Shown here: piece after piece, positions 12,001 through 15,000 of the stretch
Numbering within the stretch: the stretch's first letter is position 1
How the letters are laid out: each line of letters starts with the position of its first letter
Assembly: GCF_044324875.1 (NCBI RefSeq)
Contig: NZ_CP172185.1
Source: Escherichia coli
GTDB lineage: Bacteria; Pseudomonadota; Gammaproteobacteria; Enterobacterales; Enterobacteriaceae
Length of the DNA: 64,000 nt
Direction: 5' to 3' (one strand)
Made by a program: the position numbers

Positions 12001-15000
12001 AATGTTGCTCATATCAATATCTCATTACAAAGTGAAAGAGAGGCGTAGCGCCAGCGCAGCCAGCGTCACAAAAAGCACCGGCAGGGTCATGATAATTCCT
12101 GTACGGAAGTAATATCCCCAGCTGATAGTCATATTCTTCTGCGAAAGTACGTGCAGCCAGAGTAGCGTAGCCAGGCTACCAATTGGGGTAATTTTCGGTC
12201 CCAAATCGCAGCCAATCACGTTGGCATAAACCATCGCTTCTTTGATAACGCCAGATGCCGTGCTGCCATCAATGGACAACGCGCCAACCAGTACCGTCGG
12301 CATATTGTTCATAATAGAAGAGAGGAAGGCGGTGAGGAATCCGGTGCCGAGCGTCGCGGCCCACAGGCCGTTTTCCGCCAGCACGTTGAGTACGCCAGAA
12401 AGATATTCCGTTAGTCCGGCATTGCGCAGGCCATAAACCACCAGATACATGCCGAGCGAGAAGATGACAATCTGCCAGGGCGCACCGCGCAGGACTTTAC
12501 CCGTATTAATTGCATGACCGCGTTTAGCGACGGCAAATAATATCAGCGCGCCCACTGCCGCAATGGCGCTTACCGGAATGCCGAGCGGTTCCAGGACGAA
12601 AAATCCCACCAGCAGAAACAGTAAAACAAACCAGCCAGTTTTGAACGTAGCAGGATCTTTAATCGCTTCTGCGGGCGATTTCAGCAGCGCCATGTCGTAG
12701 TTCTGCGGAATATCTTTGCGGAAATAAAGATGCAACATCACCAGCGTGGCAACAATTGCGGCGATATCCACCGGCACCATCACCGATGCGTATTCGCGAA
12801 AGCCGAGGCCAAAGAAATCTGCGGAAACGATATTCACCAGGTTGGAGACAATAAGCGGCAGGCTGGCGGTATCGGCAATGAACCCGGCCGCCATCACAAA
12901 CGCAAGCGTAGTGCCTTTACTGAATCCTAAAGCCAGCAGCATGGCGATGACAATTGGCGTTAAAATCAGCGCCGCGCCATCATTGGCAAACAGAGCTGCA
13001 ACGGCGGCACCGAGCAGGACAATCCAGGTAAACAGCAAGCGACCGCGTCCATTGCCCCAGCGTGAGACGTGCAGCGCCGCCCATTCAAAAAAGCCGGACT
13101 CATCCAGCAGCAGGCTGATGATAATGACGGCAATAAACGCCGCCGTCGCGTTCCAGACGATATTCCACACCACCGGAATATCACCCGGATGAACCACGCC
13201 CGTAACCAACGCCAGTACCGCGCCGAGCGTTGCACTCCAGCCGATGCCTAAACCTTTCGGCTGCCAGATAACCAATACGATGGTCAGGACAAAAATAGCG
13301 CCTGCCAGTAACATAATGCCTCCCGGAAAAACACATATGCAAATCCATATGTGTTTAGCTAAATTTTTTAACTACAAGTGTTCTTACTGTCTACGGAACA
13401 ATTTTGTCTGGCCAGGTTGCGGACAATCACCTGAACCTTTTCCTGTTCGCATCGCCAGGCCTGCTCAATAATTTTCGCTGCCCATGCTGGAATATGCGGC
13501 GATAAGCGGTAATGAACCCACTTACCCTGCTTGCGATCCAGCAATAGCCCACTTTCACGCAGCAATGCCAGGTGGCGGGATATCTTGGGCTGCGACTGAT
13601 CGAGGGCAGTACAGAGATCGCAGACGCATAATTCTCCCAGCTCGCTGAGCAGTAAAACGATGCCCAGACGGGTCTCATCAGCAAGAATTTTGAACAGTTG
13701 GATGGGTAAGGGAAATGACATATTGCGCTCCTGATTGTTGCAGGTAGTGTCTCTCTTCGAAGCGGATAAGTCAAAAACATATATGACTTAACGAATGTGT
13801 AAGCGCAGAAGAAGGTAATAGGTGTGAATTAAGAGTTGGGTATTCATTTGAAAGGAGGTCTGAATCAGGACGTAAAAAAACCGACTTTGCGTCGGTTTTT
13901 TACTTTCCAGCCCTGAGTTGGTGGCTCTGGCTGGAGTGAGAGAGCTCTTATCTAACAGCTCAATACTATTAGCCAGTGGCTAACATTGCAAGAATTAGCG
14001 ATTTCTTCAGCTGGCGGAGGGAGCACTTCGGTATACATGGCAGTGAAAGAGGATTTATATACTTTCACCGGATTATCGCCGTACTAAGCCTTGTCCGAAT
14101 CCGGATGTAAAAAAACCGACTTCGCGTCGGTTTTTTTACTGTTCAGCCCTGAGTTGGTGGCTCTGGCTGGAGTGAGAATGCCATCATCTAACTTTTCCAT
14201 GCTATTACCTTAAAAGAGACATTGCAAGGTTATGCTGGTTATTTAGCCTAATTACACTGTATGATTATCCAGTTAGCTCTGAGGCATTTTCACTCTGGCA
14301 ATGCGCATAAACGCTTTCAAAGTCCTGATCAGTGGTACGGGTGGTGCCGTTAACTGATGCTCTGGCCGGAGTGAGAGAGTTCTTATCTAACAATGAGACA
14401 TGCGCCGTGACAGGCAGTGGATGAGTAAGCGGATGCATTCTCACTCCATCGCATGGAGAAAACGGGTGATTGATAAAGCAATCATCGTTCTTGGGGCGTT
14501 AATTGCGCTACTGGAACTGATCCGCTTCCTGCTTCAGCTTCTGAACTGATAGCGGAAACGTAGCTAAGGGCAAAGAGCACACCACTCTTTGCCCTTTAAC
14601 ATTTAACGCATGGTCACGAACTCTTCTGCCGCCGTCGGGTGAATGGCGACGGTATTGTCGAAGTCTTTTTTGGTCGCCCCCATCTTCAGCGCCACCGCGA
14701 AGCCCTGCAACATTTCATCCATACCAAAACCAATGCCGTGAATACCGACAATCTTCTCTTCTGGCCCAACGCACACCAGCTTCATGCGGCACGGCTGGCG
14801 GTGAGTGGTGACGGCGGTATACATCGCGGTGAAAGAGGATTTATACACTTTCACCTGATCGTCGCCGTACTGCTCGCGCGCCTGCGGTTCCGTTAAACCA
14901 ACAGTCCCAATCGGCGGATGGCTGAAGACCACGGTCGGAATATTGCTGTAATCCAGATGCTCATCCGGCTTGTTATTAAACAGGCGTTCAGAGAGACGGC

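What the first reader, a model, noticed from the sequence alone, without database searches (positions are those of the whole stretch)
14011..14090. A roughly 80-nt paralog of an internal gor segment sits between the agrA and agrB repeat units
Sequence 14011..14090 (gctggcggagggagcac…ggtatacatggcagtgaaagaggatttatatactttcaccggattatcgccgtact) aligns in the same orientation, at about 80% identity, with 14790..14875 inside the gor coding region (gctggcggtgagtggtg…ggtatacatcgcggtgaaagaggatttatacactttcacctgatcgtcgccgtact). It suggests the tandem dinQ/agr units arose by duplication of a block that included part of gor. Any plus-strand transcript across the copy would be partially antisense to gor mRNA.
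Basis: seen in the sequence. Interest (0 to 1): 0.4.

Follow-up and report, generated by a model that had tools for sequence, protein, structure and literature searches.

The report
Dead fragment of gor beside dinQ
The 76-base stretch between the two Agr small-RNA genes is a decaying, apparently functionless leftover copy of part of the neighbouring glutathione reductase gene, left by the duplication that helped build this toxin-antitoxin locus.

Summary
Window 14010-14085 is a same-orientation copy of gor 14794-14871 (codons 362-388): 64 of 78 columns identical, 89% over a 57-nt core, z = 26.7 against shuffles. It lies between AgrB (13872-13955, minus strand) and AgrA (14107-14191, minus strand).

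It is a truncated pseudogene relic, here called gor'. It has no start codon and is frameshifted. It is the most variable segment of the locus (0.199 differences per site, against about 0.10 at gor four-fold sites). It is present in 3282 of 5426 complete E. coli genomes and lost elsewhere by recombination between the agr repeats.

E. albertii keeps a different remnant at the same junction: the gor stop codon plus about 27 nt, and the right end. So the original copy spanned the last ~269 nt of gor. The geometry (spacings of 786 and 236 nt) fits one tandem duplication of [agr unit-dinQ-gor 3' end] followed by a ~550-nt deletion. Insertion of the module with duplication of the gor end is not excluded.

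Antisense regulation of gor is not supported. No plus-strand promoter was found, and published K-12 Term-seq lists no 3' end on that strand.

The fragment is unannotated and absent from the two papers on this intergenic region. It is a minor evolutionary footprint.

The parts
14010..14085 (-). gor' relic: a truncated, frameshifted copy of gor codons 362-388. Its conceptual translation is [18 protein letters not shown], after which it goes out of frame.
   Evidence: 82% identity to gor 14794-14871, z = 26.7.
14794..14871 (-). Parental segment inside the intact gor coding sequence (nt 192-269 counted from the stop codon).
14603..15955 (-). gor (glutathione reductase), intact 450-codon gene.
14086..14092 (.). 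7-nt junction (AAGCCTT) between the end of gor homology and the start of repeat unit A.
13858..13992 (.). Repeat unit B: small palindrome, bidirectional terminator, AgrB and the agrB promoter. Weak homology to unit A may continue to about 14009.
   Evidence: 112 of 140 columns identical to unit A, spacing 235-236 nt.
14093..14228 (.). Repeat unit A: small palindrome, bidirectional terminator, AgrA and the agrA promoter.
13872..13955 (-). AgrB antitoxin sRNA.
   Evidence: RF02891, 108.1 bits. K-12 synteny.
14107..14191 (-). AgrA sRNA.
   Evidence: RF02891, 91.9 bits. K-12 synteny.
13963..13991 (-). agrB promoter (TTGCAA-17-TAGTAT). The relic occupies about -55 to -130 relative to the AgrB 5' end.
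14359..14392 (+). 34-nt core in the dinQ 5' UTR. It is a direct DNA repeat of the agr cores and is the target of the Agr antisense RNAs.
   Evidence: PMC3567139.
14466..14549 (+). dinQ toxin ORF (27 aa, GTG start).
14068..14105 (.). Possible hairpin across the junction: CCGGATT in the relic pairs with AATCCGG at the start of unit A. Its significance is doubtful.

Best explanation
Window 14010-14085 is a non-functional pseudogene fragment of gor, here called gor'. It is a molecular fossil of the segmental duplication that generated the present dinQ-agrAB locus. It does nothing today.

The most likely history has three steps.
1. An ancestor of E. coli and E. albertii carried [agr unit - dinQ - terminator - gor].
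2. A block of about 786 bp was duplicated in tandem. It ran from about 15 nt before the agr terminator, through dinQ, and 269 nt into the 3' end of gor. This gave [unit B - dinQ' - gor'(1-269) - unit A - dinQ - gor].
3. In the E. coli lineage a deletion of about 550 nt removed the redundant toxin copy and gor'(1-191). That left the agrB unit abutting gor'(192-269). In E. albertii other deletions left gor'(1-30) plus roughly gor'(240-269).

Shown here: the homology, its orientation and extent, the truncation and frameshifts, the neutral decay, the presence/absence polymorphism, and the alternative remnant in E. albertii.

Inferred: the order and nature of the events.
For: - Homology is far above chance.
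- The fragment is truncated at both ends and has a 2-nt deletion in the window. K-12-type copies have a 4-nt deletion, and strain AW1.7 a further 15-nt deletion.
- Mean pairwise difference in the right half of gor' is 0.199 per site, the highest in the locus. The dinQ ORF is 0.016, the agr RNAs 0.05, and gor four-fold sites average 0.10.
- The fragment is present in 3282 of 5426 complete E. coli genomes. It is absent where units B and A, or an agr unit and dinQ, have recombined.
- Its closest gor sequences are Escherichia (89-91%), not Citrobacter or Salmonella (81-84%).
- Three E. albertii genomes carry TTAACGCATGGTCATGAATTCTTTCGCC (gor stop codon plus 27 nt, 26 of 30 identical, z about 10.7). 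This is joined to CCTGATTGCCGCCGTACT at the identical right junction with the agr unit.
- Geometry: gor'-to-gor spacing is 786 nt and unit B-to-unit A spacing is 235-236 nt. The difference of about 550 nt equals dinQ plus the first 191 nt of gor.
- No annotation exists in K-12 or in PGAP genomes. The two papers on the arsR-gor region do not mention it; they only presume a tandem duplication of the agr genes.
Against: - No genome with the predicted intermediate was found (a second dinQ copy, or a full 269-nt gor'). Across 5418 E. coli genomes the first 191 nt of the gor end occur once per genome, with a single extra place overall.
- In E. albertii, homology stops within a few bases of the gor' stop codon. 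Nothing to its left resembles dinQ or an agr unit. Under the tandem model that breakpoint is a coincidence.
- The left edge of the B/A repeat (13858 / 14093) coincides with the left edge of homology to plasmid-borne agr-like units. This fits a discrete inserted module better.
- The left 24 nt of the relic are less variable (0.132) than the right part. They lie just upstream of the agrB promoter, so some constraint there cannot be excluded.
Confidence: 0.6

Rival explanations
1. Same relic, different origin. A discrete agr-dinQ module, related to the plasmid dinQ/dql modules, was inserted at the 3' end of gor together with a duplication of the last 269 nt of gor. One possible route is single-crossover integration of a circle carrying that gor piece. 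This would give [gor'(1-269) - module - gor]. The agrB unit was added or duplicated later in the E. coli lineage.
For: - In E. albertii a single agr unit is preceded directly by a gor' remnant that begins at the stop codon. Unrelated DNA lies to its left.
- Homology to plasmid agr/dinQ modules ends at about 14091 on the left and 14599 on the right. These are exactly the two junctions with gor' and gor.
- Salmonella and Citrobacter have no dinQ/agr downstream of gor, so the module did arrive at this site.
Against: - An extra event is needed to place unit B to the left of gor'(192-269).
- A tandem duplication of [gor' + unit A] predicts another gor' copy left of unit B, and none is detectable (P = 0.06 to 0.8).
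- The gor-downstream sequences of the outgroups are too variable to tell whether the E. albertii left flank is ancestral.
Confidence: 0.27
2. The copy is the body of a plus-strand small RNA that ends at the bidirectional agrA terminator. It would pair with gor mRNA codons 362-388, acting as a trans antisense regulator analogous to AgrB on dinQ.
For: - The direct orientation means a plus-strand RNA would be 82-89% complementary to gor mRNA.
- On the plus strand, 14049-14139 resembles the AgrB model: a hairpin plus a terminator, 35.8 bits.
- The hairpin arms show one compensatory change between E. coli and E. albertii, and wobble-compatible changes in K-12-type copies.
Against: - The Rfam score is below the gathering score of 40.
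- No plus-strand promoter exists between 13850 and 14235 at a threshold (8 of 12) that recovers the dinQ, agrA and agrB promoters.
- K-12 Term-seq tables list 3' ends only at 3647653(-), 3648147(+) and 3648377(+).
- Complementarity decays freely: K-12 is 72% with a 4-nt gap, and diversity is at or above the neutral level.
- 40% of E. coli genomes lack the fragment.
- The hairpin is not the predicted fold in two haplotypes. The 'compensatory' base also belongs to a local palindrome.
Confidence: 0.04
3. The relic has been co-opted as cis-acting DNA, either as an upstream element of the agrB promoter or as a spacer insulating the agrB promoter from the agrA terminator.
For: - It spans about -55 to -130 from the AgrB 5' end.
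- Its promoter-proximal 24 nt are less variable than the rest (0.132 vs 0.199), and they are identical between the window and K-12.
Against: - Even the left part is more variable than the promoter itself (0.031) and than gor four-fold sites (0.10).
- Strains with a single hybrid agr unit do without it.
- The low window-vs-K-12 divergence extends over the whole agrB unit, so it may simply reflect shared ancestry of that haplotype.
Confidence: 0.07
4. It encodes a small protein: the minus-strand ORF 13952-14068 of 38 codons, or the 72-codon ORF that PGAP calls in strain 2014C-3338.
For: - An ORF is listed on the minus strand.
- One RefSeq genome annotates a hypothetical protein, WP_000968019.1, across the fragment.
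Against: - The ORF runs through the agrB promoter or the agrA terminator.
- It is destroyed by the 4-nt deletion in K-12-type copies and is not conserved in length or frame.
- Nearly all genomes have no annotation there.
Confidence: 0.01
5. A templated patch rather than a block duplication. A stretch of gor was copied as filler DNA into a repair or template-switch junction between two pre-existing agr units.
For: - The template is short and lies only 786 nt away.
- Tandem agr-like units exist without any gor piece on an IncI plasmid, spaced 246 nt apart.
Against: - The E. albertii remnant shows the original copy was about 269 nt long and reached the stop codon.
- That remnant sits beside a single agr unit, not between two.
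Confidence: 0.04

Closest known systems
dinQ-agrAB type I toxin-antitoxin locus of E. coli K-12 (Weel-Sneve et al. 2013, PMC3567139; Kristiansen et al. 2016, PMC5066626; Rfam RF02891)
   Same: This is that locus. The flanking repeats are AgrB and AgrA, and the 34-nt core is repeated in the dinQ 5' UTR. The authors already presumed that the two sRNA genes arose by tandem duplication.
   Different: The gor-derived piece between agrA and agrB is not described or annotated. It belongs to none of the three genes and gives the first physical trace of how far the duplicated block extended.
Truncated direct copies of a gene's 3' end flanking an integrated element (for example the partial tRNA or gene-end duplications at borders of genomic islands and Campbell-type integrants; from general knowledge)
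   Same: A dead partial copy of the 3' end of the neighbouring gene lies on the far side of an accessory module, in direct orientation, while the intact gene is preserved.
   Different: No integrase or att-like site is nearby. The duplicated piece is about 269 nt of a protein-coding gene. It now sits inside the module, between the two agr units, in E. coli.
Tandemly amplified chromosomal type I toxin-antitoxin loci (ldr/rdl, ibs/sib, zor/orz; from general knowledge and PMC4147584, PMC11264685)
   Same: Local duplication of a toxin/antisense module, copy-number polymorphism among strains, and recombination between repeats.
   Different: Here the second toxin copy is gone and only the antitoxin copy remains. 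A fragment of the flanking housekeeping gene was carried along.
Trans-encoded antisense RNAs that are diverged direct repeats of their target (AgrB on dinQ)
   Same: A direct DNA repeat of part of a nearby gene. If read from the opposite strand it would give extended complementarity and end at a terminator.
   Different: No promoter, no detected transcript, and no conservation of the complementarity.

Membership tests
Pseudogene fragment / relic of a segmental duplication | Significant nucleotide similarity to a parent gene, closest to the resident genus's own copy | tested here: met
   82% over 78 columns, z = 26.7. Escherichia gor 89-91% vs Citrobacter/Salmonella 81-84%.
Pseudogene fragment / relic of a segmental duplication | Truncated, without start or stop context, and with a disrupted reading frame | tested here: met
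   Covers only codons 362-388. There is a 2-nt deletion in the window, a 4-nt deletion in K-12-type copies and a 15-nt deletion in AW1.7.
Pseudogene fragment / relic of a segmental duplication | Evolves without purifying selection | tested here: met
   0.199 differences per site in the right half, against 0.10 at gor four-fold sites and 0.016 in the dinQ ORF.
Pseudogene fragment / relic of a segmental duplication | Adjacent, co-oriented, and colinear with other duplicated sequence | tested here: met
   Direct orientation 786 nt from the parent segment, between direct repeat units B and A. Different remnants of the same copy occur in E. albertii.
Functional gor paralog (glutathione reductase) | Full-length intact ORF with pyridine-nucleotide disulfide oxidoreductase domains | tested here: not met
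   Only 76 nt, equal to 25 codons of 450, and frameshifted.
AgrB RNA family (Rfam RF02891) | Covariance-model score at or above the gathering score of 40 bits | tested here: not met
   The plus-strand match 14049-14139 scores 35.8 bits, and most of that comes from the shared terminator. The true AgrB and AgrA copies score 108.1 and 91.9 bits.
Trans-encoded antisense sRNA acting on gor | Extended complementarity to the target mRNA | tested here: met
   Follows from the direct orientation: 82% in the window and 72% in K-12.
Trans-encoded antisense sRNA acting on gor | Own promoter on the antisense (window plus) strand | tested here: not met
   No plus-strand candidate between 13850 and 14235 at 8 of 12 matches, a threshold that recovers the dinQ, agrA and agrB promoters.
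Trans-encoded antisense sRNA acting on gor | Detected transcript or 3' end on that strand | tested here: not met
   The Adams et al. 2021 Term-seq tables for K-12 list no minus-strand 3' end between 3648147 and 3648377. This covers only the conditions of that study.
Trans-encoded antisense sRNA acting on gor | Conservation of the pairing region across strains | tested here: not met
   Three deeply diverged haplotypes, indels, and absence from 40% of genomes.
Small protein gene | ORF conserved in frame and length, with a translation start context | tested here: not met

The most novel reading that the evidence does not exclude
In haplotypes that keep high similarity to gor, such as the window's (89% over 57 nt), the relic might be transcribed on the plus strand under some untested condition. 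Candidate conditions are SOS induction, arsenic stress, or read-through from the arsR side. The transcript would end at the bidirectional agrA terminator and act as a nascent antisense RNA against gor mRNA. That would be an sRNA caught in the act of being born from a duplication remnant, linking a DNA-damage toxin locus to glutathione redox control.
Probability: 0.04. Interest if true: 0.55.

Novelty: new member of a known kind. Interest (0 to 1): 0.28.

Why it matters
The relic is a small but concrete piece of natural history for a well-studied model locus. It shows that the event that produced the gor-adjacent copies took about 269 nt of the neighbouring housekeeping gene with it. It also fixes that event before the split of E. 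coli and E. albertii.

The relic gives a marker for following the recombination that keeps reshuffling the three agr/dinQ repeats among strains. It illustrates how a trans-acting antitoxin RNA gene can be left behind when a duplicated toxin copy is deleted.

It has no evident physiological role. Its practical value is in correct annotation (a gor pseudogene fragment, not a hypothetical protein) and as a phylogenetic landmark.

Tried and rejected
Only three Escherichia loci were useful (L009, L061, L116).

2. I looked for remains of a second dinQ or agr unit to the left of the E. albertii remnant. None is significant. The best local score was 17 against a shuffle mean of 18.9. Against unit B, P = 0.05 to 0.6 depending on scoring.

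3. I looked for a decayed second gor copy to the left of unit B, as a [gor'+unit] tandem duplication would predict. It is not significant (P = 0.06 to 0.8).

4. I tested whether the spacer between two tandem agr-like units on an IncI plasmid is gor-like. It is not.

5. I tried to use gor-downstream sequence of Citrobacter and Salmonella as the ancestral flank for judging the E. albertii boundary. The flanks differ in every genus, so this was uninformative.

6. I searched 5426 complete E. coli genomes for a second copy of the stop-proximal 191 nt of gor. There is effectively none.

7. The long-range hairpin CCGGATT/AATCCGG with an apparent compensatory change is weakened on two counts. A local palindrome (GTCYGAATCMGGAY) explains the same base. 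Minimum-free-energy folds do not keep the long hairpin in two haplotypes.

8. The small-ORF reading and the plus-strand Rfam AgrB-like hit were both rejected.

Full report
**Setting**

The window carries the Escherichia region arsC-arsB-arsR (minus strand), an 881-nt intergenic region (13722-14602), then gor (14603-15955, minus), rlmJ and prlC. In K-12 the same intergenic region holds dinQ, agrA and agrB, and nothing is annotated between agrA and agrB.

Rfam places AgrB-family RNAs at 13872-13955 (108.1 bits) and 14107-14191 (91.9 bits), both on the minus strand. The dinQ ORF is 14466-14549 on the plus strand. The window's Gor protein and its whole intergenic region are identical to E. coli-labelled draft assemblies. 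No complete RefSeq E. coli genome exceeds 94% identity over the intergenic region.

**The observation**

Aligning the intergenic region to gor gives a single strong match. Window 14010-14085 aligns to 14794-14871 in the same orientation, with 64 of 78 columns identical and a score of 48. Dinucleotide shuffles gave 12.9 +/- 1.3, so z = 26.7. The ungapped 57-nt core is 89% identical.

The segment corresponds to gor codons 362-388. Read on the gor strand, the copy gives [18 protein letters not shown] and then leaves the frame.

**Anatomy of the repeats**

Two direct repeat units flank the fragment. Unit B is 13858-13992 and unit A is 14093-14228. They share 112 of 140 aligned columns and are spaced 235-236 nt apart. 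Each consists of a small palindrome, a bidirectional terminator, the Agr RNA and its promoter. A 34-nt core is repeated a third time in the dinQ 5' UTR at 14359-14392.

The gor-like piece fills almost all of the 100 nt between the units. Seven bases (AAGCCTT) separate it from unit A. The distance from the copy to its parent segment is 786 nt.

**What it is**

The fragment is a dead fragment of gor, for five reasons.

- It is truncated at both ends and has frame-breaking deletions that differ between lineages. The window has a 2-nt deletion, K-12-type copies a 4-nt deletion, and strain AW1.7 a further 15-nt deletion.
- Within the E. coli group there are at least three deeply diverged haplotypes: K-12 type, PT62/L152/L155 type, and the window's type.
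- Across seven genomes the right half of the fragment is the most variable part of the whole locus, at 0.199 differences per site with 20 of 54 sites variable plus indels. The dinQ ORF is 0.016 and the agr RNAs about 0.05. Four-fold degenerate sites of gor in a partly overlapping set of E. coli-group genomes average 0.10.
- K-12's own copy is only 72% identical to K-12 gor.
- The fragment is present in 3282 of 5426 complete E. coli genomes and is never annotated, apart from one spurious hypothetical protein. Where it is missing, units B and A have recombined into one hybrid unit, or an agr unit has recombined with the dinQ core.

**Origin**

Salmonella and several Citrobacter species have no dinQ or agr downstream of gor. 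The fragment is closest to Escherichia gor.

The key comparative result comes from E. albertii. Three genomes have a single agr unit, and immediately to its left lies a different remnant of the same copy. It reads TTAACGCATGGTCATGAATTCTTTCGCC, which is the gor stop codon and the next 27 nt (26 of 30 identical, z about 10.7). This is joined to CCTGATTGCCGCCGTACT, which ends at exactly the same junction with the agr unit as in E. coli.

The original duplicate therefore ran from the gor stop codon to about nt 269. It predates the split of E. coli and E. albertii and has since been eroded by different internal deletions. E. coli-group genomes all keep nt 192-269. None keeps a second copy of nt 1-191.

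**Which duplication**

Loss of about 550 nt then removed the second dinQ and gor'(1-191). This reproduces the E. coli structure with two events and matches the two spacings.

Model B is insertion of a discrete agr-dinQ module between duplicated gor ends, with agrB added later. It explains two things better:
- why homology in E. albertii stops at the stop codon with unrelated DNA beyond it;
- why homology to plasmid-borne agr/dinQ modules ends at the two junctions, about 14091 and 14599.

Model B needs an additional event for unit B, and the extra gor copy it predicts to the left of unit B is not detectable.

I could not find an intermediate genome. I favour model A (about 0.55 to 0.6) over model B (about 0.27). 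In either case the fragment is a by-product of the duplication that assembled the locus, and I hold that broader conclusion with about 0.85 to 0.9 confidence.

**Function**

The antisense idea fails every test except complementarity.

- No plus-strand promoter is found between 13850 and 14235 at a threshold that does recover the dinQ, agrA and agrB promoters.
- The Term-seq tables of Adams et al. 2021 for K-12 list 3' ends only for dinQ (3647653, minus), agrA (3648147, plus) and agrB (3648377, plus) in this interval.
- The plus-strand resemblance to the AgrB model scores 35.8 bits, below the gathering score, and rests mainly on the palindromic terminator.
- A hairpin across the junction shows one apparently compensatory change and some wobble-compatible changes. 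It is not the predicted fold in two haplotypes, and the base concerned also belongs to a local palindrome shared by all agr units.

A cis role upstream of the agrB promoter cannot be excluded for the left 24 nt but has no positive support. The ORF readings are broken by the indels.

**Literature**

Only two papers in the searchable library mention the arsR-gor region. They describe dinQ, agrA and agrB, state that nothing else had been reported there, and presume that the sRNA genes were tandemly duplicated. Neither mentions a gor-derived piece.

**Verdict**

The finding is a real, unannotated but ordinary kind of feature: a neutrally decaying gene fragment. It is useful as an evolutionary landmark for a type I toxin-antitoxin locus and of low physiological interest.

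Noticed in passing
window 13941-13950 (agrB core), 14177-14186 (agrA core), 14376-14385 (dinQ core); loci L001, L005, L004, L140, L149, L116, L009: The ~10-nt variable centre of the 34-nt antisense core exists in at least four allelic forms: AGAGYTCTTA, ATAGYCRTCA, AATGCCATYA and AATGCCCACA. These forms are shuffled among the three repeat positions.

In K-12, the window, PT62 and 2014C-3338 the dinQ target matches the agrB copy. In SC476 and MLI108K1 it matches the agrA copy perfectly. In O157:H7, L116, L061 and E. 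albertii it is nearest the agrA-type copy.

Only 1663 of 5426 complete genomes carry the K-12-type dinQ target at 99% identity or more. So the statement that AgrA is degenerate and non-functional may hold for K-12 only.
   Followed up: partly
L002 (E. coli DA61218, 1501-1908); L133 (plasmid NZ_CP122939.1, 700-1000): In the B2/ST131-like strains examined, the agr terminator and the 3' half of agr are fused directly to the dinQ core. This removes both agr promoters, the LexA boxes and the dinQ promoter, while the DinQ ORF stays intact.

The same fused layout occurs upstream of plasmid-borne dinQ. It may therefore be a working cis-antisense arrangement rather than a dead locus.
   Followed up: partly
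window 14192-14260; L144 and L153 (E. albertii) vs L009 (E. albertii), K-12: The agrA promoter region has two very different haplotypes, TTTTCCATGCTATTACCTT... and GCATCAATGCTAATACCAT.... Both occur in E. coli and in E. albertii. This suggests exchange between species or a very old polymorphism.
   Followed up: partly
L009 3967-5217; L144 5281-6900 (E. albertii): E. albertii lacks arsRBC next to the locus. Instead it has a HigB/HigA-like pair and a 159-163-codon ORF that reads across the gor remnant and the agr terminator. slp follows, as in E. coli.
   Followed up: no
window 14265-14444 minus strand; L005 2039-2212; L140 390-605: PGAP often annotates a 57-59-codon 'hypothetical protein' antisense to the dinQ 5' UTR. 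It is widely clustered in protein databases. In one genome PGAP also calls a 72-codon ORF across the gor relic and the agrA terminator. Both look like annotation artefacts.
   Followed up: partly
L134 (Salmonella IncI plasmid NZ_CP030025.1) 902-1260: Two tandem agr-like units, each a terminator plus an sRNA-like body, lie 246 nt apart on a conjugative plasmid. No dinQ is annotated beside them, and the spacer between them is not gor-like.
   Followed up: partly
window 13858-13871 and 14093-14106: A small palindrome, GTCYGAATCMGGAY, sits immediately outside each agr terminator. It is kept in both units and in other Escherichia, and is partly recognisable in plasmid copies. Its role is unknown.
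   Followed up: no
window 14072-14099 minus strand: A promoter-like site, TTCGGA-16-GATAAT, spans the junction of the relic and unit A in the window's haplotype only. K-12-type copies have GATGAC in place of the second hexamer.
   Followed up: no
K-12 3648147(+) and 3648377(+), equivalent to window ~14104 and ~13869 (minus strand): In the published Term-seq tables the AgrA 3' end has a several-fold higher score than AgrB (14514 vs 3033, and 8483 vs 1697). Yet AgrA is regarded as the non-functional copy in K-12.
   Followed up: no
L003, L002, L061, L150 vs window 12025-13721: Several lineages have lost arsR and arsB, so that arsC abuts the locus. The deletion endpoints differ, and some remove the agrB unit as well.
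   Followed up: no
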